Below, piece by piece: positions 1 through 10,978 of a stretch of DNA of 10,978 nucleotides. The notes below the pieces were generated by a model, which searched no databases, was not told where the DNA came from, and saw nothing but the letters and a program-made list of their open reading frames with translations. The stretch is from a virus, in the IMG/VR virus record IMGVR_UViG_3300045988_106092, one strand, 5' to 3'. The stretch's first letter is position 1. Each line of letters starts with the position of its first letter. Both the position numbers and the translations under genes were made by a program.

Positions 1-99
1 TTTTCCCATACGCGAAGCGCCTACCATCTACTCGCGCTTGGTAGTAAGTTCGGGCAATATCCACCGCTTGTTGCCCGTTTGCGGACACATTATAAAATG
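1..99. repeat. Inverted terminal repeat, left copy (99 bp)
   Basis: Positions 1-99 are the exact reverse complement of 10880-10978 (99/99). Identity breaks at 100 versus 10879. The outer end is 5'-TTTTCCC, a 4-nt terminal reiteration of the kind used for sliding-back initiation in protein-primed replicons. A protein-primed-type family-B polymerase is present in the same window. Confidence 0.9.
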
Positions 100-685
100 G
101 CATGTCGCGTACAGCTGGTCGATTTCCAGTAATGGAAAGCGAGAGAATTACGTTATTCCCGTTCAGTTCTTCTGGGCTTGTGATGCGATAATATATTAGA
201 CCGTTGTTGTACTCCATATTGATGATTGAGGCGCCGAAATTTCCCGATGTTCCCAGGACAGTAGCACCCTTGTCCACAGGCGCGTCCACTGGTCTTTTGT
301 ATCTGGGAGTTAGCCACCAACCATAGGTGGTCTTTGCAGCATCATTTACAGGTACTGTAAACCTACCAGAAAGTTGCACCATACCTTGATTTGTTGCAAA
401 CACTTTCCATGCTTTGTTAAATCCTGTATAGTATTGCATCCCGAACATTTTTGATAGCATTCCAGATGCCGCCATTTCGTCTAGCTTCTTCGAAACTTCC
501 GTTGAAACGTTCAAATTGTCAAAATAGTTTTTGACATAGTCAGCCAGATTCTGCAACCATTTTTGCAGGTCAGAAATATTGTCCTCGTTGTTGGTGTTGG
601 AATTACGCAGCTTCTGTATCCACGCAAGAATCCAATCCAGATTAAGGGCGTGGAAATCGGAATATGGAAAATTGTTAAAAGCCAT
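1..685 (-). CDS. Putative tail fibre / receptor-binding protein, 3' end open (228 codons, no stop before the sequence end)
   Basis: ATG at 685-683 with AAGGAGGT 6 nt upstream. I translated every triplet by hand (codons occupy plus positions 2-4 ... 683-685) and found no in-frame stop. Protein begins MAFNNFPYSDFHALNLDWILAWIQKLRNS..., an N-terminus I associate with Firmicutes phage fibre/appendage proteins, and ends ...QQAVDIARTYYQARVDGRRFAYGK. It is the last gene after portal and lower collar, the slot held by phi29 gene 12. It is absent from the supplied track, presumably because it lacks a stop. Function is inferred from position and N-terminal motif only. Confidence 0.6.
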   Translation of the reverse strand, partial: MAFNNFPYSDFHALNLDWILAWIQKLRNSNTNNEDNISDLQKWLQNLADYVKNYFDNLNVSTEVSKKLDEMAASGMLSKMFGMQYYTGFNKAWKVFATNQGMVQLSGRFTVPVNDAAKTTYGWWLTPRYKRPVDAPVDKGATVLGTSGNFGASIINMEYNNGLIYYRITSPEELNGNNVILSLSITGNRPAVRDMPFYNVSANGQQAVDIARTYYQARVDGRRFAYGK

Positions 686-697
686 ATAATTACCTCC

Positions 698-1240
698 TTA
701 ATATATCATTACACAGAATTTTCGCTTGAACGAATTACAGATAATATCATAGATATTAAATCGATCCCGAACGGAGATTTCACCCTCCAACATCTGGGCA
801 CTGGTAGTTACACCAATATTACCGTACATTCGCCCCTTGCGCTTGGTGTCCGCTGTGCTGCTGGTTGCCTGGGTGTCCTGTTGGTCATCAACCATACCAG
901 CGTCCTGGTTATATCCGGCTCGGCTTTGCGTATTGCTTCCGCTTGCTTTAGCGGTGGCATTATCTTCCCAATCCTCATATCGGTCATAGTTGTGCAGTGG
1001 ATCATAGTCCTCGGTCAGCGCCCTATGCATCCGTGTCCAATTATCCAGCTGGGCCGCGCTCCATAGGGGGATCAGCTGGCGCATGGTGTAGGGATCCGTA
1101 TAGACCAAGGACAATTCTGCCAGCTCAGTGATAATGGTCCCCACCGCCAGCTTGCGGTCCACATCCTCGGGAAGCTGTAATCCGTCAAATATTGTTGGAT
1201 CATAGTTATATAGGCCCATAACAGATAGCTTAACTCTCAC
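698..1240 (-). CDS. Putative lower collar / head-tail adaptor protein (180 aa)
   Basis: The ORF lies immediately downstream of the portal gene, the position of phi29 gene 11. GTG start at 1240 has GGAGGAGGTG 7 nt upstream and overlaps the portal 3' end by 11 nt. An ATG at 1219 is an alternative start with a poor SD. I see no motif that identifies the product, so the call is by synteny only. Confidence 0.4.
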   Translation of the reverse strand: MRVKLSVMGLYNYDPTIFDGLQLPEDVDRKLAVGTIITELAELSLVYTDPYTMRQLIPLWSAAQLDNWTRMHRALTEDYDPLHNYDRYEDWEDNATAKASGSNTQSRAGYNQDAGMVDDQQDTQATSSTADTKRKGRMYGNIGVTTSAQMLEGEISVRDRFNIYDIICNSFKRKFCVMIY

Positions 1241-2156
1241 CTTCTGCCACCTCCTCCGCCCTGGTTATTTCTCGCGCTACGGGGTTGACGCGCCAATCCA
1301 CGGACATGTCTACACCAAACATTTCCCGCACTTCTGCACATCCTTTTTGTAGGCTTTCCAACCACAAGGCGCACTTGGAATATGTTTCCACATTGTTGGC
1401 ATTAACTTCATCTGTAACCAGCCGCTCCCGTTTATCGGTGTTGGCGTTGGGTATTCCAATATCTGTATCAAACATTGCCTCAATTTTTCGCATATCGGAT
1501 AGCACCTTGTCGGCAATGTAGTTTTCGCCGACATTTTGAGAAAACATGTCCCAAGTGGGCTTGCCATCATCACCGATCAAATTTTTGTCATAAAATACAG
1601 CAGGCTGCCCGCTTGCATAGGAATCATAAAGGGCTTTCAAACTCTCAGCCACCGCCTTGTTTGCTGCTGCAAAGACATAGGACATTTTACTATTCAGCAG
1701 GTTCACACTCACGCTTTCAGAGCACAAAGCCAGTTCCTCTGCGTAATAGTTGACCAAATCCATAATTCCACCAAAGTCCGGCTGTAACTTAAACAGTACG
1801 CAATCCTGTCCGATAATGGGATCCCGCAGGCCCTTCAATAGCGGGTTGGCGATGATCGCTTTACGAGGCTGATAAAACACGTTATACCCTTCCAGGCCGC
1901 ACCCCTGGGGAATTACTCCGTATTTATCCGTTTCAATGATCGCAACCACGCCCCAGCAATAGAGGACATAGAGAAAATAATCACGGCTCCAAGTGCTCGG
2001 CAACTTCCACCGGAATACAGAAATTGTCTTTTGCAGCAGGTAGCGCCGGAAAAACTGATACAAGGCCGTGTTTTGTGTGTGTACGGTTCCGGGCCGGTTT
2101 TCACTGATTACGCGGTTTGAATAATCGTACAAATATGGTGCCCCATTACCAAACAT
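1230..2156 (-). CDS. Portal / upper collar connector protein, phi29 gp10-like (308 aa)
   Basis: True start is probably ATG 2156 (AGGAGG + 6 nt) rather than the track's GTG 2171, which sits inside that SD. The C-terminal block NANTDKRERLVTDEVNANNVETYSKCALWLESLQKGCAEVREMFGVDMSVDWR closely matches phi29 gp10 [53 protein letters not shown] as I recall it. Length is nearly identical to gp10 (about 309 aa). Confidence 0.9.
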   Translation of the reverse strand: MFGNGAPYLYDYSNRVISENRPGTVHTQNTALYQFFRRYLLQKTISVFRWKLPSTWSRDYFLYVLYCWGVVAIIETDKYGVIPQGCGLEGYNVFYQPRKAIIANPLLKGLRDPIIGQDCVLFKLQPDFGGIMDLVNYYAEELALCSESVSVNLLNSKMSYVFAAANKAVAESLKALYDSYASGQPAVFYDKNLIGDDGKPTWDMFSQNVGENYIADKVLSDMRKIEAMFDTDIGIPNANTDKRERLVTDEVNANNVETYSKCALWLESLQKGCAEVREMFGVDMSVDWRVNPVAREITRAEEVAEGES

Positions 2157-2167
2157 TATATACCTCC

Positions 2168-3544
2168 TCACTCATAATAGAAACCTCCTTGCATATAAGC
2201 AATAATGGCGTCTACTTCACTTTTTGTGGCATTTGGAATGTTTGGATGCACATCCGCACAGAGTATATATCCCGATAGCGAATTAATGGTTTTAACTTTA
2301 CACAGAGGTCTGCCTCTATGCGCAAGATCATCTTCCACCGGGTGCATCCACTCATAAAGCACTGCTGGTTTCCCCACAAGGCCATCGGTGGCGCAGGTGC
2401 CGCCAATCGTGCTGACATGCGGAATTTTTGCGGCTGCCGCACTCTCAATTGCAGACAGGCCACCGGTTAAAGCACCGGGGATATTGCCTGTATAGGCATT
2501 TACAGCGGCGCCGCCCAGCGTTGCTAACATGCTGCTAACACCCCATCCGGGGCTTACTACGTTTGAAACTGAATATGACAGACCCACCATTGCAGATACT
2601 CTGGACAAAATCCCGTTATCGCTTGTCACCGTCATGATAGCGTGTCCCGTGCGGTAATCCACTACCGTGTCGCAATTAATTGCCGTTGTGTTGGCGCACT
2701 GTATAGGATCGAGCGGAATTAAACCGAAAGGCGGATAAAACAAAGAATAACTCGCTGCTCCTGCATTAACCCATGATCCTCTGGCAGCACTGTCCGGATG
2801 CCTGCGCATATAAAATTTGGTGGTCCCGATTCCGCGCCCGCTGCCCAGATCAAACCCCGCAATATCTACCTCCACCAGACCCACTTTTACCGTATTTACA
2901 GCGGTCCCGACTGCCTTAAAAGGCAGCCACACAATACTGGTTATATACTGCAGCGGATTTAACTGCACCTTGAGGTCTGGACTTGCGGCTAATGCCAGCG
3001 CTCCCAAGGCATCCACCGCGTATGTATCGGAAAAAATCCACTGAAAGAACAGATCCAAAGATTTCGCATTGAACATTATAAACTGTGTAGCGCCAGATCC
3101 CGCGATTCCAACAACAAATGTTCCGTCCTTCGGGTCCAACGACCACGGATTTGTACCCGTTTGCAGCTCGGTAGTGGAGGCGCTATGCATGGGATACATT
3201 CCATCAATAATAGATGCATCCCATTCCGATGCTGCGCGCAACACGTAGGCAGTTCCCTTTCCGATTGCCGTTTTGAAACTCGCCAGGGGATCCACAGAGC
3301 AATACGCACCCCACAGGCCACCCTCAAAATTCCAACTATCGATCCAGTAATACCGGCCCCAGGATTGCACATATAAATAGTTATAGGTCTGTGGATTAGC
3401 AGCAGGCCCAATATTTAGGCGTATGACAGGATTTTGGATGCTGAAATCTCGGTTAGTAGTACACTGATACACCACGCCATCGGTGGGCTGTTTTGTGCTG
3501 TTTGTATCCTTTGTAAATGAGAATAGCTTTACAGGAAAAGACAA
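2168..3544 (-). CDS. Tail knob / distal tail tube protein, phi29 gp9-like (458 aa from TTG 3544)
   Basis: It sits between the capsid and portal genes, as phi29 gene 9 does. An N-terminal YNYLYVQSWGRYYWIDSWNFE block, a Gly/Ala/Ser-rich loop (GGAAVNAYTGNIPGALTGGLSAIESAAAA) and the C-terminal tail all resemble gp9 features from memory. There is no ATG near the 5' end. TTG at 3544 is preceded by GGGGGGTG + 5-6 nt. TTG at 3559 (the track start) has no SD. Confidence 0.75.
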   Translation of the reverse strand: MSFPVKLFSFTKDTNSTKQPTDGVVYQCTTNRDFSIQNPVIRLNIGPAANPQTYNYLYVQSWGRYYWIDSWNFEGGLWGAYCSVDPLASFKTAIGKGTAYVLRAASEWDASIIDGMYPMHSASTTELQTGTNPWSLDPKDGTFVVGIAGSGATQFIMFNAKSLDLFFQWIFSDTYAVDALGALALAASPDLKVQLNPLQYITSIVWLPFKAVGTAVNTVKVGLVEVDIAGFDLGSGRGIGTTKFYMRRHPDSAARGSWVNAGAASYSLFYPPFGLIPLDPIQCANTTAINCDTVVDYRTGHAIMTVTSDNGILSRVSAMVGLSYSVSNVVSPGWGVSSMLATLGGAAVNAYTGNIPGALTGGLSAIESAAAAKIPHVSTIGGTCATDGLVGKPAVLYEWMHPVEDDLAHRGRPLCKVKTINSLSGYILCADVHPNIPNATKSEVDAIIAYMQGGFYYE

Positions 3545-3565
3545 TATAACACCCCCCAAGTAATA

Positions 3566-3591
3566 CCGGGCGGCGGTCTCCCGCCGCCCGG
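3566..3591 (-). terminator. Intrinsic terminator-like hairpin after the capsid gene
   Basis: Perfect 11-bp all-GC stem (CCGGGCGGCGG / CCGCCGCCCGG) with a 4-nt loop, starting 7 nt after the capsid stop codon. It is followed on the transcribed strand by UAUUACUU. The U-tract is imperfect, so termination is probably partial. Confidence 0.7.
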
Positions 3592-3598
3592 TGCAGAA

Positions 3599-4807
3599 TT
3601 AATCCAGAAGGAACACAACGCCCTTTTCACTGTGGTCATTCCAAAGGCGTTGGGTCTCGTGCAGCCATGTGGTGGTGTAACCGCCTCTTGCGTTAAAGGG
3701 AGCGGGGCTTGCCCACTGCTGGGTGGTAGCATAGCCCAGGGCCTCACGGTCAAAGATCACTGCAAACACATTGTCCTGGTTCACCGCCTCACCGGTAACA
3801 ACGGTGCCATCGCTGCCGATTCTGCCGGGGGTCACGTTGATAGCGCCGGGTGTTTTCACACTCTGCCAGAAATTGACAGTTTCATAAGCGCCCAGGCGCA
3901 ACAGCTCGGAGTGGAAGGTGTCAGCCACCGCCATGGTGGTCATCTGATTGCTTGCCTTTGCATAGACCATCATTTTCTGGTCTGCCTTGGGAGTATGGCG
4001 CATGACAGGCATGCCTTTTACCACCGTTTGATATAGCTGGGTGCGCTCGGTCATCATGTCGGAAATGGTCAGAATGCGGGCATAGGCCCACTGAACAAAT
4101 GCCCGATAGTTGGAGGGCTGCATCACCGTTTCTGCGGTCAGCTTGAGGCCGGTTTCCGTGTTGTACTCCGTCAGAAGGTGCACCACTCGCAAGGGGTCCT
4201 TCTCATCGATGATGCCGCCGATAAAATTGGCGACTGCGGCCCTGCCCATATTCTCACGGATCTGCTCCAGCTTATCGTTCATGTTCTGCACGACCATGGA
4301 CACGAAGCCACCGAACTGCTCCGGACCGGTAAAGGCATTGTCCAGTTGATCCCTAAACAGTGTATAGCAGTCCTGCCACACGTTTTGCCCGTAAAAATTA
4401 GTCTGCAAAATCTTGGGCTTACAAATCTGCTGCTGGTCTACGCTCTTGCCGTCACCGTCTGCGGGGTCCTGGCTGTCATCATAGGCCACGGGCCACTTAC
4501 AGCGATCATCCTCGCTAATAGGCTTGTCAGCGATCTGCAGCTTGCGGACGTGGTTCCCATACGCGCTTTCAGGCACTTCCACAAGGCCAAACTTGCGCTC
4601 ATAGGGACGCACGCTAAAAATGGTCCTGGATAGCACCTGTGATATCGCCTGCATAACGGGATCATAGCCGGTCTTGAGGGTTGTCTGTGCCGCCGTCACA
4701 AAGTCTGCGGTGTTGGTGGCTGCAATCGCCGCCTGCCCGGTGGCCTGCTGCTGTACTGCGTTAAGCACCTTAGCCACCTGGTTAAAAGACATGTCATTGG
4801 TAGGCAT
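3599..4807 (-). CDS. Major capsid protein (402 aa), phi29 gp8-type by position
   Basis: ATG 4807 has AAGGAGGA upstream and a TAATG overlap with the scaffold-like ORF. The gene is followed by the strongest terminator in the window. The order scaffold-capsid-knob-portal matches phi29 genes 7-8-9-10. The N-terminal third loosely resembles gp8-type capsid proteins as I recall them. Not verified by search. Confidence 0.75.
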   Translation of the reverse strand: MPTNDMSFNQVAKVLNAVQQQATGQAAIAATNTADFVTAAQTTLKTGYDPVMQAISQVLSRTIFSVRPYERKFGLVEVPESAYGNHVRKLQIADKPISEDDRCKWPVAYDDSQDPADGDGKSVDQQQICKPKILQTNFYGQNVWQDCYTLFRDQLDNAFTGPEQFGGFVSMVVQNMNDKLEQIRENMGRAAVANFIGGIIDEKDPLRVVHLLTEYNTETGLKLTAETVMQPSNYRAFVQWAYARILTISDMMTERTQLYQTVVKGMPVMRHTPKADQKMMVYAKASNQMTTMAVADTFHSELLRLGAYETVNFWQSVKTPGAINVTPGRIGSDGTVVTGEAVNQDNVFAVIFDREALGYATTQQWASPAPFNARGGYTTTWLHETQRLWNDHSEKGVVFLLD

Positions 4808-5133
4808 TACTTATCCTCCTTATTTTTAAATGTGGGCCGGATGATGGTGGCAAGGATATCATCCACACTTTCCGTCTCCGGCTGCTTGCTGTTGTTGATA
4901 TTGGAGCGGATAATTGTCTGGTTAAGCTCCTCCAGTTTAGTCAAAATCGCCGCCTGGTCATTCGGGGGAGAGGGTGCCGGGTCGGGCTCCGGTTGTGGAG
5001 TAGGTGCGGGATCAGGCTGGTGAGGGGTTTCGGGCTCCTGCTGGGGAACGTGTGTCGGGGCACCATTAAGCGCCATGATCTCCTCCTTGGTAAAACCCGC
5101 ATCCAGCAGCTTTATAAGCTGGTCAAAGGTCAT
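4807..5133 (-). CDS. Putative scaffolding protein (108 aa) with a proline-rich linker
   Basis: Small acidic ORF directly upstream of, and translationally coupled to, the capsid gene. This is the phi29 gene 7 position and about the same size. It has a helical N-terminus (MTFDQLIKLLDAGFTKEEIMAL), a roughly 35-aa P/E/Q/D-rich linker, and a helical C-terminus. AAGGAGGA SD before ATG 5133. Confidence 0.5.
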   Translation of the reverse strand: MTFDQLIKLLDAGFTKEEIMALNGAPTHVPQQEPETPHQPDPAPTPQPEPDPAPSPPNDQAAILTKLEELNQTIIRSNINNSKQPETESVDDILATIIRPTFKNKEDK

Positions 5134-5137
5134 CGTA

Positions 5138-5797
5138 TCAATCCTCCTTAATAAATGCGTCCGGGTAGTTCACTTTAAGATTGCTCAACATGCGCTCAGC
5201 GTTTTCCCGATGCCGGAACGCCCCCACCTGCACCCGGTAGAGCTTATCGGTGGCAGGCTTGGGCTGCTCCTTCTCCTTATAGGTCACGCCGAAGTAGTCG
5301 CAGATACCCTGGGCAATAGCCTCGCCGATGTCAACCGTATGCTCCACGATCCACTTGGCGGTGGTGGCGTTGTCGTGGAACTCGCACTCGATATAGGCCG
5401 TTGGTGCGCTTGGCACCCGTACCTCGTACAGGGAGGCATCCACCCGGATATTTTCACTTGTGCCAGGGGTCACCGGGGCCAGCCGATTAAAAATGGCCTT
5501 GCAGGCCTTCATGCCCTCGCCGCCGCTGTTAAAGCAGAACATGCGAGTGCCGCCGACCGTGCCGTTAAAGGCGTTGGTGTGGATGGGCACATGGAGGTCT
5601 GCGCCGAATGCGTTGGAGTCTCTACACTTCTGCTGCATGGAGATCATGTGTCCAACCTTGACGGATACGCCGCTGCGCTCCAGGGCGGCGCGGCAGGCAT
5701 CGGCAATGTTACCGCACTGGACGGCCTCATTGGTGCTGCCATAGGCATATCGGTTATCTGTCTGATTGCTGGGGGAAAGGTAAATCTTAATTGACAT
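5138..5797 (-). CDS. Endolysin: N-acetylmuramoyl-L-alanine amidase (Amidase_3-type) with a short C-terminal SPOR-like motif (219 aa)
   Basis: Amidase_3-like pattern: LSPSNQ...N.Y near the N-terminus, HVPIHTNA, and IECEFHDN (His/Glu zinc ligands). The C-terminus YRVQVGAFRHRENAERMLSNLKVNYPDAFI matches the first half of a SPOR repeat. It lies directly downstream of the holin and overlaps it by 11 nt. Confidence 0.88.
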   Translation of the reverse strand: MSIKIYLSPSNQTDNRYAYGSTNEAVQCGNIADACRAALERSGVSVKVGHMISMQQKCRDSNAFGADLHVPIHTNAFNGTVGGTRMFCFNSGGEGMKACKAIFNRLAPVTPGTSENIRVDASLYEVRVPSAPTAYIECEFHDNATTAKWIVEHTVDIGEAIAQGICDYFGVTYKEKEQPKPATDKLYRVQVGAFRHRENAERMLSNLKVNYPDAFIKED

Positions 5798-6113
5798 GGT
5801 TATCTCCTCGCTTTAAAATGTTATCGATATTAGGGGTAAATGCTCGCAGGTTTTCCACAATGCTGCCGATCTCCATAAGGATCACATAACCACATCCCAC
5901 CTTAAAAAGCGGGAGGCCGGTTTCCAGACCCACCAAGGGGCTGCCATACTCCACGCCCCAGAGGAGCGCCAGCACCAATAACTCGCCACACTTATGATAC
6001 AAGCCGTCACGCATATAGCAAGACTTAAAGGTTTTTTTGTAACTTGCTTTCAGCAGGCCGGAAATAATATCCAGCAGTATAACAGCGCCAACAATTAAAC
6101 AGTATACTTTCAT
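5787..6113 (-). CDS. Holin, TcdE / Phage_holin_4_1-like (108 aa, 3 predicted TM helices)
   Basis: Three hydrophobic segments. ILLDIISGLLKASYKKTFKS and EIGSIVENL resemble TcdE-family motifs (SFDTLLGCLSAIKSRKFNSS, ESVSILKNM) as I recall them. AGGAGG + 7 nt before ATG 6113. The gene is immediately upstream of the amidase. Confidence 0.8.
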   Translation of the reverse strand: MKVYCLIVGAVILLDIISGLLKASYKKTFKSCYMRDGLYHKCGELLVLALLWGVEYGSPLVGLETGLPLFKVGCGYVILMEIGSIVENLRAFTPNIDNILKRGDNHVN

Positions 6114-6148
6114 TTTAACACCTCCTTTCTATCTGGTGTACTTTGGTA

Positions 6149-6224
6149 AGAGCAGGAAACACTCATGCGCTGGACACGCGCGCGCCCACCCTTCCGGGGC
6201 TGTCCTGGGGCTGTTTCCTGCTCT
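6149..6224 (-). promoter_or_regulatory. 76-nt structured RNA element at the predicted 5' end of the late transcript
   Basis: A perfect 13-bp stem (6149-6161 pairs with 6212-6224) encloses a 50-nt interior in which 38 of 50 nt are G/C. The interior has further short helices: GGACA 6172-6176 with TGTCC 6201-6205, and CCC-GGAA-GGG on the transcribed strand at 6188-6197. No U-tract follows, so it is not a classical terminator. Confidence 0.5.
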
Positions 6225-6231
6225 CACCCTC

Positions 6232-6261
6232 ATTATAATAGTTTTTGGTATGAACTGTCAA
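6232..6261 (-). promoter_or_regulatory. Near-consensus sigma-A/sigma-70 type promoter (candidate late promoter)
   Basis: On the minus strand: TTGACA (6261-6256), an 18-nt spacer, then TATAAT (6237-6232). The -35 hexamer contains the ATPase stop codon TGA (6260-6258). The predicted start near 6225 falls 1 nt before the 13-bp stem. Confidence 0.55.
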
Positions 6262-7307
6262 CAAAAATATTTTTTGAACAGTATTTCACACAAATATTGT
6301 TCAAACACTATGTGCCCAAGCATATACTGTTGATAAAGCCAGTGAAACCCCGTTCGGAATCTTTGCAGATTCACCGGCCCCGCTCCATAACGGGGAGGGC
6401 TTCCAGTAGTGTGTGTGGATACATAATAAAGACCACCTTCGGATTTATGCTTATAAATGCAGATTTCGCCCACCTGCACAATGGGGTTAAATTCCCTCAA
6501 CGGCATATTATGGACACGGCTATGCTCGTCCCCAGAAAAGCGGTTATCCAAGGCCATTTCCGTAAACTCAGTTCCTCCAGTTAGACGGTAAAGGGCTGTG
6601 TTCCGCTTCTTGTTTCCGATGGGGGATTTCTGTAGGATAATCAGACAAATACCACGCGTATCATCGATCAACACTTCCCGTCCTTTGCTCATCATCTGCT
6701 CGGCACGGTTCACCAGGCCCAGGGACAGAAAAACTGGATTCCCCAGATCATTAGCGTTAGAAAGGCATAGAAGCCGCGCCGGTGGCCTGCCGTTCAATTC
6801 TCTATTTCTATTGATGGTCTCATAGGCATTAAACAGGGCCGCCGCTTCATCCTTCAGGGGCCGTTCGTGGCTCTCCGGGATGAACTCATCATAGACGATC
6901 AAATCCACATCAGAAGCGTCAAAGCCCCGCATATTGGATATAGTAGACAGGGCCGCCGTATATCCGATGCAAGGACCTTTTGGTATAGGGTTCCCGTCCT
7001 CGCCCCGGTCCGCCTCATAAAATCCCGCTGTATACTTAGACAGGGGCCGGGAGGCCGTCAAAAAGTCGTGATCCCTATCAATACTTTTGAATGGGCTATA
7101 CTCCGGTTTATTCACAAGATCCACCTGGGACTGCAAGCGCCGCAACAGCATAAAGCGCCGCCCCTCCATAATTGATCGTTCCCTGGCTCGCTTCAATGCA
7201 CCATAGGTTTTACCGGTGCCTCGGCCTCCCACCACAAAGATAAAAGGCTGCCCACAGGCAAGAATCCCATCAATATCCAGCCATCCTTCCGGGGTGTATA
7301 GGTTAAT
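6258..7307 (-). CDS. DNA encapsidation (packaging) ATPase, phi29 gp16-like (349 aa if started at ATT 7307)
   Basis: Walker A is VVGGRGTGKTYGA and Walker B is DLIVYDEF. LCLSNAND and GTEFTEMALDNRFSGD match phi29 gp16 ICLSNA and GTEYGEMSLDNQFIGD from memory. The track's GTG start (7235) would cut off the beta-strand preceding the P-loop. The frame is open back to a TGA at 7316-7314. The only SD-supported initiator is ATT 7307-7305 (AAGGAGGTGA, 9 nt after GGAGG). Confidence 0.9.
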   Translation of the reverse strand: MNLYTPEGWLDIDGILACGQPFIFVVGGRGTGKTYGALKRARERSIMEGRRFMLLRRLQSQVDLVNKPEYSPFKSIDRDHDFLTASRPLSKYTAGFYEADRGEDGNPIPKGPCIGYTAALSTISNMRGFDASDVDLIVYDEFIPESHERPLKDEAAALFNAYETINRNRELNGRPPARLLCLSNANDLGNPVFLSLGLVNRAEQMMSKGREVLIDDTRGICLIILQKSPIGNKKRNTALYRLTGGTEFTEMALDNRFSGDEHSRVHNMPLREFNPIVQVGEICIYKHKSEGGLYYVSTHTTGSPPRYGAGPVNLQRFRTGFHWLYQQYMLGHIVFEQYLCEILFKKYFC

Positions 7308-7333
7308 AGCTTGTCACCTCCTTATAAAGAGAT

Positions 7334-7347
7334 GGGCCTTGCGGCCC
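7334..7347 (-). terminator. Small hairpin between the early module and the ATPase gene (weak terminator candidate)
   Basis: On the transcribed strand: GGGCC-GCAA-GGCCC (5-bp stem with a GNRA loop), followed by AUCUCUUUAU. It sits between the stop of the SpoVG-like gene and the ATPase SD. The stem is short, so confidence is low. Confidence 0.3.
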
Positions 7348-7352
7348 GTCCC

Positions 7353-7643
7353 TTACTCATCTGCCAAGATATTGCTGACCTTCTCCAGGATATCCTCGGT
7401 TTCTTCTTCATCCAGCGCAAGATAAACGTGGGAATAATATCTCCCATCTTTGCCCTGGCGCTGGGGGAAGGCCACAAAATCACCCTTCTTGCCCTGGATG
7501 ATCCGGCACCCGTAGATGGTGATATCGTCCACATTCAGATCAAAGACGATCCCGCCGTCTTTGAACTCCTTGACCCGCTGCACACTGTAAATATGCTGCA
7601 CACGCTCCCGGGCCTGGTTCTTGGTTCTGTTCAACTTTGCCAT
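7353..7643 (-). CDS. SpoVG-like small nucleic-acid-binding protein (96 aa from ATG 7643)
   Basis: The core FDLNVDDITIYGCRIIQGKKGDFVAFPQRQGKDGRYYSHV aligns with B. subtilis SpoVG [41 protein letters not shown] (from memory). Shared residues are R.I.G..G.FVA.P......DG. ATG 7643 has GAGGT 8 nt upstream, while the track's ATG 7658 has no SD. The gene occupies the slot where phi29 encodes SSB, DBP and its transcription regulator. Confidence 0.55.
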   Translation of the reverse strand: MAKLNRTKNQARERVQHIYSVQRVKEFKDGGIVFDLNVDDITIYGCRIIQGKKGDFVAFPQRQGKDGRYYSHVYLALDEEETEDILEKVSNILADE

Positions 7644-7699
7644 AATTCTGTACCTCATTTCTTCAAAAAATTTATATTAGTCGGGTATGGCGGCCCGGT

Positions 7700-9739
7700 C
7701 TAATCGGTTAATCTGTGTTTCATTTCCAAGAATAACATGGGATTAGCCAAAATGCGTTCATATTCTGCTGTAATGCCCAGGGTATAGGTACTGGGCTTAA
7801 TATAGATATTTGGGCCTATTTCCAGACGGTGCCCGTCTATCATCATGTGATCTGTGGGCGGGTGGTCATTGTAGATGCTTTCGGTGCCTCCGGCCTTGGA
7901 AAAAGTGAACTCTTCTTTGAACGCTTCCAGGCCGCCAGCGGCGTCCAGCTCTGGGCCGCCCCACTTCTTGCTCACACCGGAGATTGTGGCGTGGGTCTTT
8001 CCGTCACCGTAGTCATAGGCATACTTTTTAGCGCCCAGAGTTACAAATCTGCTGTAAGGATTTTCCGCTTCAAATACGCCCATATAGTGCTCGGTGCCGT
8101 GGGGATCTGTGGCGTGAGCGCCGGAGGCTTTACTGTCCTTTTTCCTCTTGGCATTGTAGGCACACCAATCTACTATGCCGATATATTTTACAGAATCGGT
8201 ATCGCAGTACACCGCATTATGGCCCGCAAGATTCAAACCCTCCTGGAGTCTTAACCGTGCCCATGCCGTGATCCATACGCCCCACTGATAACACAAAAAC
8301 GCCCGTTTGGAATGCTTTTCCAGCAGCTCCCCGATATCGTCCCTACGCTCCACGAACTGCTGTGGATCCTCGGCAAGGAAATCAATGGTTTGTTTAACAG
8401 GGTCCTGCGCCATCATACCGTACAAAGAATTAAGCAGATTCTTGCTTTTCTCATAAAACTGCTCTTGCCCCTCCACGCCCTTTAAACAAGTTTTGGTGGT
8501 ATAGTATTCAATGGTAGTAAGCACCAGGGGCCTGGGCAGATATCCATACCAGGTATATAGGGCATCCAAAATTTGGATATCGTCCCATTGGTACTGATCC
8601 CGGATGATACCAAAATCTACATCTGTCACGGTGGTTTCCAGATATTCAGCAGATAAGATTCTGCCATTATCATAGCAGGCCCCGATCACTTCCCTGCACT
8701 TGGCCCCTGACAGATACGGGAAGCCGTCAAATGGGTCTAACATTGTTATACCCCAAACTGCGAAGCGAAACAGAACCGCCCGCCTTTGCCGGATCAATCG
8801 CTCGATCATTTGCAGCGTAGGGGCCTCCAACTCACGAAATCGGCCCATAGGGAATTTACAATTACACAATACATCTGGATAGCTGCTCGACCGGTCAGCG
8901 CTGGACACATTACGAAGGATTTTACCAGAGAAATAGCGGTTAGCGTGTGTGTTTCCTCCCCGGAATGCCTCCCGCAACATACGGTATGTTTCCAAATCCG
9001 GTTGTGAATCACGGACCATTTTACGGCCCGCCATCCGCATTGCCCTTTTTGCATCGCGCCGGACGTAGCCGGTAGAAGTCAATGGAATAGTCTGTAAATT
9101 ATCATGATCCCGGTACATTTCTGCCTGGTACGCCTCCACAAGGCCCAATACATCGTTTTGACAGTATTGCAGCTCACGATCTGTCAAGGGGGTCCAAGGA
9201 TAACGCACTTTGGAATGGTCGAACTCGTCGCTGTCCAATTTCTGATGCTCCACCCCCATTTTCTGTGTGTACTGGTCCAAACTCATGTTGCTATGAAAAT
9301 AGGTGCAGCGATATTCCAGACGCTTGTCATACATGGTGCATTTGAGCACCTTGCGGGATTTCACTGCAAAAACCTCCGCTGGTTTGAAATCGTAGACAGT
9401 GCGGAGAAATTGGAACTCATACGACAAATTATGCACCAGAATCACCAGACTTTGGTCCTCCGGTATGTAACGGAGAAGAGCCCCCACGAAGCCCCGCCAC
9501 TCATCCCAAGTCCTTCCCATCACCGTATACTCAAGGCCAAATTGCCATTGCCAAATATACATAGCGGCTTGTTCTGTGCCCGGTATGGGGCTTGTTTCAA
9601 TATCAAATGCGGTGATGATATCCTTGTATGTCCGGGTCTGTCTGCTGCCGCTATTGCCACGCTTCTTTTTCTGGGCCGGTAGATCATTCAACCATCCAAA
9701 ATCGAATTGCACCGGACTAACGATTATACTTTCTGCCAT
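7700..9739 (-). CDS. Protein-primed family-B DNA polymerase (679 aa from ATG 9739)
   Basis: All canonical motifs are readable. ExoI is AFDIETS, ExoII is HNLSYEFQF and ExoIII is YCQNDVLGL. Motif A is DRSSSYPDV, motif B is KNLLNSLYGMMAQ, motif C is YCDTDSVKY and the KxY motif is GAKKYAY. Each parallels phi29 polymerase (DFETT, HNLKFDGAF, YIKNDIQII, DVNSLYP, KLMLNSLYGKF, YCDTDSI, KTY). ATG 9739 has a GAGGA SD. The track's upstream extension to 9934 overlaps the preceding gene in another frame and is probably not translated. Confidence 0.96.
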   Translation of the reverse strand: MAESIIVSPVQFDFGWLNDLPAQKKKRGNSGSRQTRTYKDIITAFDIETSPIPGTEQAAMYIWQWQFGLEYTVMGRTWDEWRGFVGALLRYIPEDQSLVILVHNLSYEFQFLRTVYDFKPAEVFAVKSRKVLKCTMYDKRLEYRCTYFHSNMSLDQYTQKMGVEHQKLDSDEFDHSKVRYPWTPLTDRELQYCQNDVLGLVEAYQAEMYRDHDNLQTIPLTSTGYVRRDAKRAMRMAGRKMVRDSQPDLETYRMLREAFRGGNTHANRYFSGKILRNVSSADRSSSYPDVLCNCKFPMGRFRELEAPTLQMIERLIRQRRAVLFRFAVWGITMLDPFDGFPYLSGAKCREVIGACYDNGRILSAEYLETTVTDVDFGIIRDQYQWDDIQILDALYTWYGYLPRPLVLTTIEYYTTKTCLKGVEGQEQFYEKSKNLLNSLYGMMAQDPVKQTIDFLAEDPQQFVERRDDIGELLEKHSKRAFLCYQWGVWITAWARLRLQEGLNLAGHNAVYCDTDSVKYIGIVDWCAYNAKRKKDSKASGAHATDPHGTEHYMGVFEAENPYSRFVTLGAKKYAYDYGDGKTHATISGVSKKWGGPELDAAGGLEAFKEEFTFSKAGGTESIYNDHPPTDHMMIDGHRLEIGPNIYIKPSTYTLGITAEYERILANPMLFLEMKHRLTD

Positions 9740-10304
9740 TGTTGCGTCCTCGCTTCTTGGGTGGTGTCGGCATCTCTGATGAATCTGGATCAAAGTTTTT
9801 CCAGTACCATTCAAAATTGCTCTTGATCTGCTCCACCGGGACACCCTGGTCATCTGCACGCCGGAATAACTCCGCAGTTTTCTCCATGTATGGCTGTCCC
9901 ACAAACTCCCGGGAGAACTCCAGGAATCGGGCAAAAGCCGCGTAATTGGATTTTGTAAGCCATGTATAACCCTTCTCGCGCCATGTTGCTATAGCCTTAT
10001 CACGGATCGCGCGTTGTCCAGACACGCTGCCCGCCTCAGCGGTCAGAAAACGGGACACATCAGAAAGAAGATGGACCAATTCACCAATATTTGATACCTG
10101 GGACAGCGGAACATATTTTCCCTTATTATAACGATATGCATTTGAATCTTCAAATTCAGATCCCACGAAGCGCTCCAAGCGCTTTCGGGCCACGGAACGA
10201 AGACGGGAATATTCCCTTCTTAACTCCTTCTCACTATAACCCTCCTGGAGGGCCTGGGGCTGATATGCGGAAATGGGAAAAGTAAATTTTATGTAGCGAG
10301 CCAT
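9717..10304 (-). CDS. Putative terminal (priming) protein (195 aa)
   Basis: It lies immediately upstream of the polymerase gene and overlaps it by 23 nt, matching the phi29 order of gene 3 then gene 2. There is a basic helical N-terminal region (ELRREYSRLRSVARKRLERF) and a basic C-terminal tail (PPKKRGRNNGRKYNR). GGAGGTGG SD and a TAATG overlap with the upstream small ORF. I cannot verify sequence-level homology, so the call is by synteny and because a protein-primed polymerase needs a terminal protein. Confidence 0.45.
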   Translation of the reverse strand: MARYIKFTFPISAYQPQALQEGYSEKELRREYSRLRSVARKRLERFVGSEFEDSNAYRYNKGKYVPLSQVSNIGELVHLLSDVSRFLTAEAGSVSGQRAIRDKAIATWREKGYTWLTKSNYAAFARFLEFSREFVGQPYMEKTAELFRRADDQGVPVEQIKSNFEWYWKNFDPDSSEMPTPPKKRGRNNGRKYNR

Positions 10305-10402
10305 TATTCAACCACCTCCAAATACTCACACCACGGAAAACACACCACATCTGATAATAATGCGGGGCACTCCAGTTCGTCAGGGCAAGTGCAAATTAAC
10401 AT
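10304..10402 (-). CDS. Small Cys-rich early ORF (32 aa), function unknown
   Basis: ATG 10402 has GAGGAGGG 6 nt upstream. Its stop overlaps the next ATG (TAATG). Peptide: MLICTCPDELECPALLSDVVCFPWCEYLEVVE (5 Cys). It is below the length cut-off of the supplied track. Confidence 0.5.
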   Translation of the reverse strand: MLICTCPDELECPALLSDVVCFPWCEYLEVVE

Positions 10403-10425
10403 TCTGAACCCTCCTCATCCACATA

Positions 10426-10605
10426 TCACCTTCTAACCAATAAACCACACCCTGCCAACAATCGCAAAACCATTACACGACATGCGTAACAACTGGGATT
10501 CCAACCACAAGTAGTGCAATCCGCTTTACGATCACACTCCACAAAGCGGTTATATCGGCAACTACACTGAGCATCTTTACGATACACATTAACAGTATCG
10601 CTCAT
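10426..10605 (-). CDS. Small Cys-rich early ORF (59 aa), possible zinc-ribbon-like protein
   Basis: ATG 10605 has GGAGGGG 5 nt upstream and an ATGA overlap with the preceding ORF. Peptide: MSDTVNVYRKDAQCSCRYNRFVECDRKADCTTCGWNPSCYACRVMVLRLLAGCGLLVRR. It has 8 Cys, including CxC and two CxxC pairs, and a hydrophobic/basic C-terminus. Confidence 0.55.
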   Translation of the reverse strand: MSDTVNVYRKDAQCSCRYNRFVECDRKADCTTCGWNPSCYACRVMVLRLLAGCGLLVRR

Positions 10606-10697
10606 TTTAACCCCTCCAATTCCTCTAAAAATTTCATAAAGATAGTGGAAAATGCACCCGCACCCATAATGATAAGGATATATGATATTGTTGTCAT
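10602..10697 (-). CDS. Small single-TM early ORF (31 aa), function unknown
   Basis: ATG 10697 has AAGGAGGG 6 nt upstream. Peptide: MTTISYILIIMGAGAFSTIFMKFLEELEGLK, with one hydrophobic helix and an acidic tail. It is the first ORF of the minus-strand gene train. Confidence 0.45.
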   Translation of the reverse strand: MTTISYILIIMGAGAFSTIFMKFLEELEGLK

Positions 10698-10723
10698 TGT
10701 ATTCCCTCCTTGATTCATTGTAT

Positions 10724-10771
10724 ATATTACACCATCCGCTCTGATATTACACCATCCGCTCTGATATTACA
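10724..10771. repeat. Tandem direct repeat, 20-bp unit x about 2.3 (ATTACACCATCCGCTCTGAT)
   Basis: Units at 10726-10745 and 10746-10765 are identical, and a partial third copy follows (10766-10771). The repeat lies 27-74 nt upstream of the first early ORF. On the transcribed strand each unit reads TGTAATATCAGAGCGGATGG and contains a -10-like TAATAT. Confidence 0.9.
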
Positions 10772-10879
10772 AATACCAAACACTAATGAAAATTCAACTA
10801 ACATAAGTTAAACTAATACCGTGCTCGCATCCAGGGCACAGCCCTACTTTAATCCGCTAAAGTGTCCACGAGTGACGGA

Positions 10880-10978
10880 CATTTTATAATGTGTCCGCAA
10901 ACGGGCAACAAGCGGTGGATATTGCCCGAACTTACTACCAAGCGCGAGTAGATGGTAGGCGCTTCGCGTATGGGAAAA
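10880..10978. repeat. Inverted terminal repeat, right copy (99 bp)
   Basis: Exact reverse complement of 1-99. The window ends ...GGGAAAA-3'. Confidence 0.9.
10883..10911 (-). promoter_or_regulatory. Candidate inward-facing promoter inside the right ITR (possible early promoter)
   Basis: On the minus strand: TTGTTG (10911-10906), a 17-nt spacer, then TATAAA (10888-10883). The predicted start is just inside the unique region, reading toward the early genes. It is only a moderate match (3/6 and 5/6). The mirror copy at 68-96 on the plus strand would read antisense into the fibre gene. Confidence 0.3.

What the first reader, a model, noticed from the sequence alone, without database searches (positions are those of the whole stretch)
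1..685. Tail-fibre ORF reads through the 99-bp ITR and off the end of the genome with no stop codon
The minus-strand frame opened by ATG 685 has 228 sense codons and no TAA, TAG or TGA before position 1. I checked every triplet by hand. The last 32 codons (FYNVSANGQQAVDIARTYYQARVDGRRFAYGK, positions 97-2) are encoded entirely by the ITR. The sequence expected to be the protein-primed replication origin is therefore also coding, whereas the ITRs of phi29, Cp-1 and PRD1 are non-coding as far as I know. The single leftover base is A on the coding strand and cannot begin a stop codon, so termination needs at least 5 more nt.

Three explanations seem possible:
(a) Terminal nucleotides are missing from the assembly, because TP-blocked ends are under-sampled. 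This would conflict with reading TTTT as the true terminal reiteration.
(b) The gene is a genuine non-stop gene at a DNA end. It would give run-off mRNA and depend on ribosome rescue or tmRNA tagging.
(c) The 99-bp repeats are not termini. They could be collapsed inverted repeats flanking an unassembled invertible segment that carries alternative fibre C-termini, as in the Mu G and P1 C segments, where the crossover repeats also lie inside the fibre ORF. A contig from such a locus would look identical to an ITR contig.

The protein end ...AVDIARTYYQARVDGRRFAYG looks to me like the start of a further domain rather than a natural C-terminus, but that is a weak impression. Against (c), the window contains no recombinase, and the polymerase type predicts true ITRs.
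Basis: partly seen in the sequence, partly recalled or inferred. Interest (0 to 1): 0.75.

Follow-up and report, generated by a model that had tools for sequence, protein, structure and literature searches.

The report
Truncated contig hides long terminal repeat
The "gene without a stop codon at the genome end" comes from an assembler cutting the contig 99 bases into a much longer inverted repeat; the gene is 403 codons long with a normal stop, and the phage's real ends lie about 670 bases further out on each side.

Summary
The minus-strand frame 685..2 has 228 sense codons and no stop, and bases 1-99 are a perfect inverted copy of 10880-10978.

Independent assemblies of the same phage continue the ORF past ...RRFAYGK for 175 more codons to a TAA (403 aa). 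About 145-200 non-coding nt then follow, ending at a conserved terminus, ...GGGAATCCC. Five contigs from different assemblies stop at that exact base.

The right-hand copy is real. Two other assemblies cross the 10879/10880 junction, and one follows the inverted fibre sequence for 241 nt. The window holds exactly 99 nt of each arm, as expected from a k=99 de Bruijn graph collapse. The k=127 and k=31 assemblies stop at the matching k-dependent points.

The most likely structure is a phi29-like, protein-primed phage of about 12.3 kb. Its right end lost the last 35 nt of the normal ITR. At a CATTTT microhomology it gained an inverted copy of the left end, namely the fibre C-terminal domain plus the terminus. 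That gives an ITR of about 771 nt.

There is no non-stop gene and no invertible segment. The interest is modest: a natural case of ITR expansion, and a warning about calling contigs complete from ITRs.

The parts
2..685 (-). The first 228 of 403 codons of the tail-fibre-like gene. It has N-terminal helices and a beta-sandwich, and the C-terminal domain begins here. The contig end truncates it.
   Evidence: One search gives the open frame. Searches show that L009, L010 and L008 carry the same gene, 403 aa with a TAA stop in L009 and L010. Searches give the model: a beta-sandwich at residues 84-188 that resembles R-pyocin fibre domains (weak match).
1..99 (-). The inner 99 nt of the left arm of the long inverted repeat. 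It covers fibre codons 197-228 plus the first base of codon 229.
   Evidence: One search shows perfect complementarity with 10880-10978. Searches show the arm continuing in L008, L009 and L010. Its 99-nt length matches an assembler k-mer of 99.
10880..10978 (+). The inner 99 nt of the right arm. It is an inverted copy of the fibre 3' part, reading outward toward the right end.
   Evidence: L012 (k127 assembly of ERR589740) crosses the junction and follows the fibre sequence for 241 nt. L013 (k119, another ENA assembly) crosses it by 79 nt.
10791..10885 (+). Remnant of the normal (ancestral) right ITR. It is now internal and lacks the last 35 nt of the terminus.
   Evidence: It is 85% identical, in ITR orientation, to the left non-coding terminal region (L009 2716-2817). 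It aligns with the canonical termini of S2159, L024-L026 and L005 up to ...GGACATTTT.
10880..10885 (+). CATTTT microhomology at the crossover. It is shared by the canonical ITR (...GGACATTTTGGGGG...) and by the fibre gene (...GCCATTTTATAATG...).
   Evidence: One search shows the flank comparison, and searches show the sequences.
9717..10304 (-). Candidate terminal protein of 195 aa. The gene lies immediately upstream of the polymerase gene and overlaps it.
   Evidence: One search lists the ORF. Searches found no family match, so the assignment rests on position only (inference). One search shows a conserved cluster of 8 members.
7700..9739 (-). Protein-primed family B DNA polymerase. The gene callers give 679 aa; the 744-aa ORF listing starts further upstream.
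   Evidence: PF03175, E 3.4e-11; phrog_1907, E 5.7e-56. Searches give the 679-aa gene calls in sister strains.
10724..10763 (+). Two tandem copies of the 20-nt unit ATATTACACCATCCGCTCTG, upstream of the leftward early genes.
   Evidence: family D8. The Logan k=31 contig L022 breaks here.

Best explanation
The window is a de Bruijn graph contig. It holds the unique core of a linear, protein-primed, phi29-like gut phage genome plus exactly k = 99 nt of each arm of a long inverted terminal repeat. It is not a complete genome.

The fibre-like gene continues past position 1 for 175 more codons to a TAA, giving 403 aa. About 145 non-coding nt follow, ending at the conserved terminus ...GGGAATCCC.

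The right end of this strain follows the normal ITR only as far as ...GGACATTTT, 35 nt short of the normal terminus. It then switches, at a 6-nt CATTTT microhomology, into an inverted copy of the fibre gene starting at codon 197. This is shown for 241 nt. I infer that it runs on to a copy of the left terminus.

That would give an ITR of about 771 nt and a genome of about 12,322 nt. The ITR would contain the whole C-terminal domain of the fibre gene.

The likely origin (inferred) is end repair. A resected 3' end folded back, or switched template, onto the CATTTT site near the other end. It was then extended to that end, restoring a functional origin, as in the adenovirus panhandle model.
For: 1. 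The ORF continues. L009 (Logan SRR26895032), L010 (ENA ERZ19694001) and L008 (ENA ERZ914864) match window 1..1906-8300 at 99.9-100% and extend beyond position 1. The fibre is 403 aa with a TAA stop in L009 and L010. Six 90%-cluster members, and homologues down to 30% identity, are about 400 aa long.

2. The true terminus is fixed. L024, L025, L026 and L005 on the fibre side, and scaffold S2159 on the TP side, all end on the same base...GGAATAGGGAATCCC. L009 stops 6 nt short of it.

3. The right junction is real. L012 and L013, from two other assemblies, cross 10879/10880. L012 1-241 is the reverse complement of the fibre gene at 99.2-100% identity.

4. The k-mer signatures fit.
- The window holds 99 nt of the repeat.
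- In ERR589740 the arms differ at repeat position 114, and both k127 contigs stop at 241 = 114 + 127.
- The Logan k=31 contig L011 stops 30 nt into the repeat.

5. Window 10791-10885 aligns with canonical ITRs and shares the strain-specific deletion of about 57 nt with the left ITR of L009. The flanks show the CATTTT microhomology.

6. The context is phi29-like: pPolB, gp16 ATPase, connector and Phi29_MCP.
Against: - The right arm is documented for only 241 of the predicted 771 nt. No contig spans it to a terminus.
- No read-depth data are available, so I cannot show that the repeat has twice the coverage. I also cannot show that the junction-bearing form is the dominant, packaged genome rather than a subpopulation.
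- A short tip carrying the canonical 35-nt right terminus would have been pruned by the assemblers, so a mixture cannot be excluded.
- The k=99 setting of the window's assembler is inferred from the repeat length, not known.
- The repair mechanism is inferred from the junction anatomy alone.
Confidence: 0.8

Rival explanations
1. The junction-bearing molecules are aberrant replication products of a phage whose packaged genome has normal, short, non-coding ITRs. They would be fold-back, snap-back or defective genomes made by polymerase template switching. The assemblers followed the aberrant path and pruned the 35-nt canonical tip.
For: A second junction of the same type exists in a 97%-identical sister strain. 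In L017/L018 the subterminal ITR is joined, at ACGCT, to an inverted piece of the TP gene. This suggests such events are frequent. That form would add about 1.5 kb to the genome, which may be too much to package. Short canonical tips are removed by assemblers (general knowledge of these assemblers).
Against: The identical 10879/10880 junction is assembled in at least two other assemblies besides the window's own. Sporadic by-products would not recur at one nucleotide. In ERR589740 the two arms have diverged by one SNP, which implies inheritance. With the extension the predicted length (12.3 kb) matches sister genomes (12.3-12.5 kb).
Confidence: 0.13
2. The right-hand copy is an assembly or library chimera with no biological counterpart. 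The only real feature would then be a contig truncated inside the fibre gene.
For: Inverted chimeras at microhomologies are typical of amplification and end-repair artefacts (general knowledge). The 99-nt length equals a common assembler k.
Against: k-mers of 119 and 127 nt spanning the junction need real reads. The same junction appears in different assemblies made with different assembler settings. L012 extends 241 nt with an arm-specific SNP.
Confidence: 0.03
3. One reading: the repeats flank an unassembled invertible segment carrying alternative fibre C-termini, as in Mu G or P1 C.
For: The repeat boundary lies inside the fibre ORF at a domain boundary. Such a contig would look the same as this one.
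Against: The left arm runs through a single C-terminal domain, a stop codon and a conserved ITR to a physical terminus shared by five contigs. The two arms flank the entire genome, not a small segment. No recombinase is present. No alternative C-terminus is seen in any assembly of this strain.
Confidence: 0.02
4. One reading: a genuine non-stop gene at a DNA end, giving run-off mRNA and relying on ribosome rescue.
For: Only the window itself.
Against: At least eight assemblies of the same or near-identical gene contain the next 175 codons and a TAA. One further assembly (L008) continues the ORF 47 codons past position 1 before its contig ends.
Confidence: 0.01

Closest known systems
phi29-like (protein-primed) podoviruses with terminal-protein-linked linear genomes and ITRs
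   Same: The window has a family B protein-primed polymerase, a gp16-type packaging ATPase, a phi29-type connector and a phi29-type major capsid protein. It is a small linear genome whose ends carry the same terminal sequence, 5'-GGGATTCCC....
   Different: phi29 has a 6-bp ITR (PMC11476376). Sister strains here have imperfect non-coding ITRs of about 190-200 nt. This strain appears to have about 771 nt that include half of a structural gene. No pRNA match was found in Rfam. The terminal protein is assigned by position only.
Adenovirus panhandle model of ITR repair and enlargement (from my own knowledge of the older adenovirus literature; not retrieved here)
   Same: It is a protein-primed linear genome. 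One damaged end is restored by copying the other end after intrastrand annealing, and annealing at an internal site would lengthen the ITR. The anatomy here fits: a truncated old ITR, a microhomology, and then an inverted copy of the other end.
   Different: No experiment supports it here. The annealing site is a 6-nt microhomology, not the ITR itself. The mechanism is inferred from sequence alone.
De Bruijn graph collapse of terminal or inverted repeats in short-read assemblies
   Same: The contig carries exactly k nt of the repeat at each end. Assemblies with other k values stop at the corresponding points: 127 nt after the arm SNP, and 30 nt into the repeat for k=31.
   Different: Nothing differs. 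This is the ordinary behaviour, and it explains why the contig looks like a complete ITR genome.
Mu G / P1 C invertible fibre segments
   Same: Inverted repeats lie inside a fibre ORF at the boundary of the C-terminal domain.
   Different: There is no invertase and no alternative C-termini. The arms sit at the two ends of a linear genome and run to the termini.

Membership tests
Non-stop gene at a physical DNA end | No in-frame stop between the start codon and the true end of the molecule | tested here: not met
   A TAA stop lies 525 nt beyond window position 1 in L009 and L010. The terminus lies about 145 nt further on.
Non-stop gene at a physical DNA end | Window positions 1 and 10978 are physical termini | tested here: not met
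   L008, L009, L010 and L012 extend past both ends at 99-100% identity. The conserved terminus ...GGGAATCCC is seen in five contigs.
phi29-like protein-primed phage | Protein-primed family B DNA polymerase | tested here: met
   PF03175, E 3.4e-11; phrog_1907, E 5.7e-56.
phi29-like protein-primed phage | phi29-type connector, capsid protein and gp16 packaging ATPase | tested here: met
   PF05352 (1.1e-25), PF25622 (3.7e-19) and PF05894 (2.8e-22).
phi29-like protein-primed phage | [quoted passage not shown] | not testable with these tools
   A 195-aa ORF lies upstream of pol and overlaps it, but it has no family match. Covalent linkage needs biochemistry.
phi29-like protein-primed phage | Identical terminal sequence at both genome ends | tested here: met
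   This holds at clade level. The TP-side end of S2159 and the fibre-side ends of L005, L024, L025 and L026 share GGGATTCCCTATTCC.... It is not shown directly for both ends of the window strain.
phi29-like protein-primed phage | Packaging RNA (pRNA) | tested here: not met
   No Rfam match at E <= 1 anywhere in the window. A divergent pRNA cannot be excluded.
De Bruijn repeat-collapse artefact | The contig ends exactly k nt into a repeat, and the stop point moves with k in other assemblies | tested here: met
   The window has 99 nt. The k127 contigs stop at 114 + 127 = 241. The k31 contig stops 30 nt in.
Invertible fibre segment (Mu G / P1 C type) | Site-specific invertase next to the segment | tested here: not met
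   No recombinase domain was found in any of the ten main ORFs scanned against Pfam and PHROGs. Smaller ORFs, including the holin-like one, were not scanned.
Invertible fibre segment (Mu G / P1 C type) | Two alternative C-terminal exons between the inverted repeats | tested here: not met
   There is a single C-terminal domain, then a stop, an ITR and a terminus. All assemblies of this strain show the same C-terminus.
ITR expansion by fold-back or panhandle repair | A truncated ancestral ITR retained inside the new repeat boundary, with microhomology at the crossover | tested here: met
   Window 10791-10885 aligns with canonical ITRs and stops at CATTTT, which is shared with the fibre gene.
ITR expansion by fold-back or panhandle repair | The new arm runs to the terminus and reproduces the other end's origin | tested here: inconclusive
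   The right arm is followed for only 241 nt. The rest is collapsed in every short-read assembly.

The most novel reading that the evidence does not exclude
Gut phi29-like phages may naturally and repeatedly rebuild damaged genome ends. A resected 3' end would fold back onto a short microhomology near the opposite end and copy it outward, creating heritable ITRs hundreds of nucleotides long that swallow parts of genes.

In this strain the ITR would be 771 nt and contain the entire C-terminal, putative cysteine-peptidase-like domain of the fibre. In a 97% sister strain a second, independent event would give about 1.6 kb containing the 5' part of the TP gene.

The 730-nt gain in this strain almost exactly offsets an early region about 740 nt shorter than in the sister strains. 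The duplication may therefore also serve as stuffer that restores packaged length.
Probability: 0.4. Interest if true: 0.5.

Novelty: new member of a known kind. Interest (0 to 1): 0.3.

Why it matters
As reported, a non-stop structural gene reading through a replication origin would have been remarkable. It is not real.

What remains matters in two modest ways.

- Practical: an exact ITR whose length equals an assembler k-mer is not evidence of a complete genome. ITR-based completeness calls in viral catalogues will accept contigs like this one, which lacks about 11% of its genome and 43% of a structural gene.
- Biological: the locus is a clean natural example of how ITRs of protein-primed replicons can grow. 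It shows a truncated old ITR, a 6-nt microhomology, and an inverted copy of the other end. A second independent junction of the same type occurs in a sister strain. This can be tested directly with long reads on virion DNA.

Tried and rejected
- The 228-aa fragment found no homologue in the protein database and no Pfam or PHROG family. It gave only weak N-terminal hits in GenBank phages. The full 403-aa sequence was needed.
- Megablast of the whole window against GenBank phages found no match.
- Exact-pattern scans found nothing: the ITR and the terminal motif in viral contigs, and the junction and a degenerate terminal motif in JGI metagenome contigs. This strain's ends are not in those collections.
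- Looking up the 679-aa polymerase of the window by exact sequence found no record. I got round this with cluster-member ids.
- Sample SRR26895032 might have shown a strain without the right-hand junction. It is uninformative, because its TP-side contig L022 breaks at the tandem 20-mer at window 10753, before the junction.
- Pfam, a PDB profile search and Foldseek on the 403-aa protein gave only weak leads: CHAP in one homologue, NlpC/P60 entry 3npf at E 0.057, and pyocin fibre domains at E 0.01. The domain functions remain tentative.
- The promoter and terminator scan gave nothing above shuffled background for a rightward promoter that could express the right-arm fibre fragment.
- Literature searches found no report of this kind of ITR expansion in phi29-like phages. 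They also retrieved no open-access source for the adenovirus panhandle work.

Full report
**1. The observation**

- The minus-strand frame from ATG 685 to position 2 has 228 sense codons and no stop.
- Positions 1-99 and 10880-10978 are perfectly complementary over 99 nt.
- The last 32 codons lie inside that repeat.

All large ORFs are on the minus strand. They identify a phi29-like podovirus:

| Feature | Coordinates | Evidence |
|---|---|---|
| Protein-primed family B polymerase | 7700-9739 | PF03175, phrog_1907 |
| gp16-type packaging ATPase | 6258-7235 | PF05894, phrog_2150 |
| Holin-size ORF (Phage_holin_4_1 on the same 108-aa gene in L008) | 5787-6113 | not scanned directly |
| Amidase_3 + SPOR endolysin | 5138-5797 | Pfam |
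| Phi29-type capsid protein | 3599-4807 | PF25622 |
| Connector | 1230-2171 | PF05352 |

**2. Position 1 is not a genome end**

I looked up the exact 180-aa neighbour of the fibre gene (698-1240). This returned independent assemblies that carry the same DNA.

| Locus | Source | Window span matched | Identity |
|---|---|---|---|
| L008 | ENA ERZ914864, k127 | 1-8300 | 100% |
| L009 | Logan SRR26895032 | 1-2180 | 99.95% |
| L010 | ENA ERZ19694001, k119 | 1-1906 | 99.9% |

All three run on beyond position 1. In L009 and L010 the ORF continues after ...RRFAYGK with NFTYTG.NALNDATGAGLLECDTLV... and ends at TAA after 403 codons.

The 90% cluster of this protein has six members. Five are 403 aa and one is a 302-aa fragment with the same C-terminus. 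More distant homologues are 385-513 aa.

The window's gene is therefore cut at residue 228 of 403. The terminal TTTT is only the complement of the AAAA in GGG-AAA-AAC.

**3. Where the real end is**

About 140-200 non-coding nt follow the TAA. Five contigs from different assemblies end on exactly the same base...GTCCACCAG(T/G)GGAATAGGGAATCCC:
- L024 (SPAdes), L025 (MEGAHIT k127) and L026, on the fibre side;
- the more distant relative L005, on the fibre side;
- scaffold S2159, on the polymerase/TP side. S2159 is 12,269 nt, was rebuilt from L019 + L016, and is 97% identical to window 5-10594.

L009 stops 6 nt short of this point.

The canonical terminus of this clade is therefore 5'-GGGATTCCC..., present at both ends. 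The canonical ITR is an imperfect, non-coding stretch of about 190-200 nt lying outside the fibre ORF. L007, a 64%-MCP relative, likewise has its ITR downstream of the fibre stop. The window lacks about 672 nt on the fibre side.

**4. The right-hand copy is real and longer than 99 nt**

L012 comes from the same ENA assembly as L008. L013 comes from the same ENA assembly as L010. Both cover the TP side and cross the 10879/10880 junction.

L012 continues 142 nt past window position 10978. Its first 241 nt are the reverse complement of the fibre gene: 100% identical to L010, 99.6% to L008 and 99.2% to L009.

The inverted repeat has a fixed inner boundary at 99/100 and 10879/10880, and it is at least 241 nt long. 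K-mers of 119 and 127 nt cannot bridge a junction that is absent from the reads. The junction also recurs in assemblies other than the window's own. It is therefore not a chimera of one assembly.

**5. Why the window shows exactly 99 nt**

A de Bruijn graph contig that enters a repeat stops at the first k-mer lying wholly inside the repeat. The stop points fit this rule in three assemblies:
- The window holds 99 nt of each arm.
- In ERR589740 the two arms differ at repeat position 114 (A on the left, G on the right). Both k127 contigs, L008 and L012, end at position 241 = 114 + 127.
- The Logan k=31 contig of the same run (L011) ends 30 nt into the repeat.

The "ITR" of the window is therefore the k-sized stub of a longer repeat. 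That the window's assembler used k = 99 is my inference from the repeat length.

**6. Anatomy of the right end**

Window 10791-10885 aligns, in ITR orientation, with the left non-coding terminal region (L009 2716-2817, 85% identity). It also aligns with the canonical ITRs of sister strains. It shares with L009 a strain-specific deletion of about 57 nt between GTGTCCA motifs.

It follows the canonical sequence up to ...GTGACGGACATTTT. The canonical end then continues GGGGGAATTTGTCCACCAGTGGAATAGGGAATCCC, which is 35 nt. The window instead continues ATAATGTGTCCGCAAACGGG..., which is the fibre gene. The fibre gene reads ...GACATGCCATTTTATAATGTGTCC... at that point. CATTTT is therefore common to both partners.

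**7. Most likely mechanism**

The junction anatomy is shown. The process is inferred.

A strand whose 3' end had lost about 35 nt annealed through CATTTT to AAAATG at window 94-99 near the other end. It was then extended to that end. This produced a genome whose right end is a copy of the left 771 nt, including a complete terminal origin.

This corresponds to the panhandle or template-switch route proposed for ITR repair in adenovirus. I know that model from memory and did not retrieve a source for it.

The predicted genome is 10,978 + 2 x 672 = 12,322 nt, with an ITR of about 771 nt.

One detail is suggestive. Without the extension this strain would be about 11.6 kb, because its early region is about 740 nt shorter than that of S2159. 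With the extension it is back at the 12.3-12.5 kb of its sisters. A link to packaging length is speculation.

**8. What the ITR contains**

A 10-sequence alignment of the fibre family has invariant Cys249, His346 and His361, and conserved residues from about position 207 onward. The AlphaFold model (mean pLDDT 71.7) has these parts:
- N-terminal helices;
- a beta-sandwich at residues 84-188;
- a separate alpha+beta domain starting with helix 204-219.

The repeat boundary, at codon 197, therefore falls at a domain boundary.

Functional leads are weak:
- One homologue hits Pfam CHAP (2e-6).
- A PDB profile search gives an NlpC/P60 protein at E 0.057.
- Foldseek's best hits are R-pyocin fibre domains at E 0.01.

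"Tail fibre with a C-terminal cysteine-peptidase-like domain" is a reasonable but unproven label. The right-arm copy has an in-frame TGA just upstream (10873-10875) and only a GTG (10891) as a possible start. No rightward promoter stood out, so the copy is probably silent.

**9. Rival explanations**

- **Aberrant replication products alongside a normal genome.** This cannot be excluded without read depth, because assemblers would prune a 35-nt canonical tip. Against it are the recurrence of the identical junction in different assemblies, the arm-specific SNP, and the sensible genome length.
- **Pure chimera.** The k-mer argument above excludes this.
- **Invertible segment.** This is contradicted. 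The left arm runs through one C-terminal domain and a stop to a physical terminus, and there is no recombinase.
- **True non-stop gene.** This is refuted.

**10. Comparison and novelty**

The phage is a new, uncultured member of the phi29-like protein-primed podoviruses. phi29 itself has a 6-bp ITR (PMC11476376). An ITR of several hundred nt that includes half a structural gene is unusual for this group. It is not a new principle, because long gene-containing terminal repeats and panhandle-type repair are known in other linear replicons (from my own knowledge).

The reported anomaly is an assembly truncation. I score interest at 0.3. That reflects a clean natural example of ITR expansion, apparently recurrent (see the L017/L018 junction), together with a practical warning about ITR-based completeness calls.

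Noticed in passing
L017 8813-8945 and L018 5983-6089; partner sequence at window 10024-10078: A 97%-identical sister strain has a second fold-back-type junction. After the fibre stop and about 86 nt of ITR (...GCTTTAATACGCT), the sequence switches at an ACGCT microhomology into an inverted copy of the inside of the TP gene, 1,639 nt from the TP-side terminus. The SPAdes scaffold stops 55 nt into it and the Logan contig stops 30 nt into it. The two contigs may come from the same sample.
   Followed up: partly
window 627-685 compared with L005 10896-12350, L006 12025-13479 and L007 11873-13327: Close relatives (MCP 93-95% identical) keep only the first 20-80 residues of the fibre (MAF.NFPYSDFHALNLDWIL). 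After that they carry a different 484-aa protein with a metallo-beta-lactamase-fold domain (PF00753, 6.6e-6). This looks like a module swap of the distal part of the last gene.
   Followed up: partly
window 10595-10879 compared with S2159 1-1358 and L020 1-1477: The early region next to the right ITR varies between strains of about 97% identity. The window has 31-, 59- and 32-aa ORFs where S2159 has a 172-aa ORF and L020 a 238-aa ORF. The window strain is about 740 nt shorter here.
   Followed up: partly
window 10724-10763: There is an exact tandem duplication of a 20-nt unit (ATATTACACCATCCGCTCTG) just upstream of the first leftward ORFs. S2159 has a single copy. It may be a promoter or operator element.
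   Followed up: no
window 7353-7658 (-): A 101-aa ORF between the polymerase and the packaging ATPase gives a sub-threshold match to SpoVG (PF04026, 28.0 bits against a cut-off of 29.6). It is conserved in sister strains. A SpoVG-like DNA/RNA-binding protein is unexpected in so small a phage.
   Followed up: no
window 10791-10885 and L009 2716-2846, compared with L024-L026 and S2159: The window strain's ITR lacks about 57 nt found in sister strains, between repeated GTGTCCA(C)/GGTGGACA motifs. The same deletion is present at both ends, which implies past homogenisation between the two ends. The repeated GTGTCCAC-like motifs in the terminal 100 nt may be protein-binding sites of the origin.
   Followed up: partly
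whole window: No Rfam family matches at E <= 1, including phi29 pRNA, although the packaging ATPase and connector are phi29-type. The intergenic inverted repeat 6145-6161 / 6212-6228 (17 nt, 94%) and the 7236-7352 spacer are unexamined candidates for a divergent pRNA.
   Followed up: no
window 8300: The two k127 contigs of ERR589740 (L008 and L012) both end at window position 8300, inside the polymerase gene. They overlap by only one base. The reason is unknown; it could be low coverage or strain variation.
   Followed up: no
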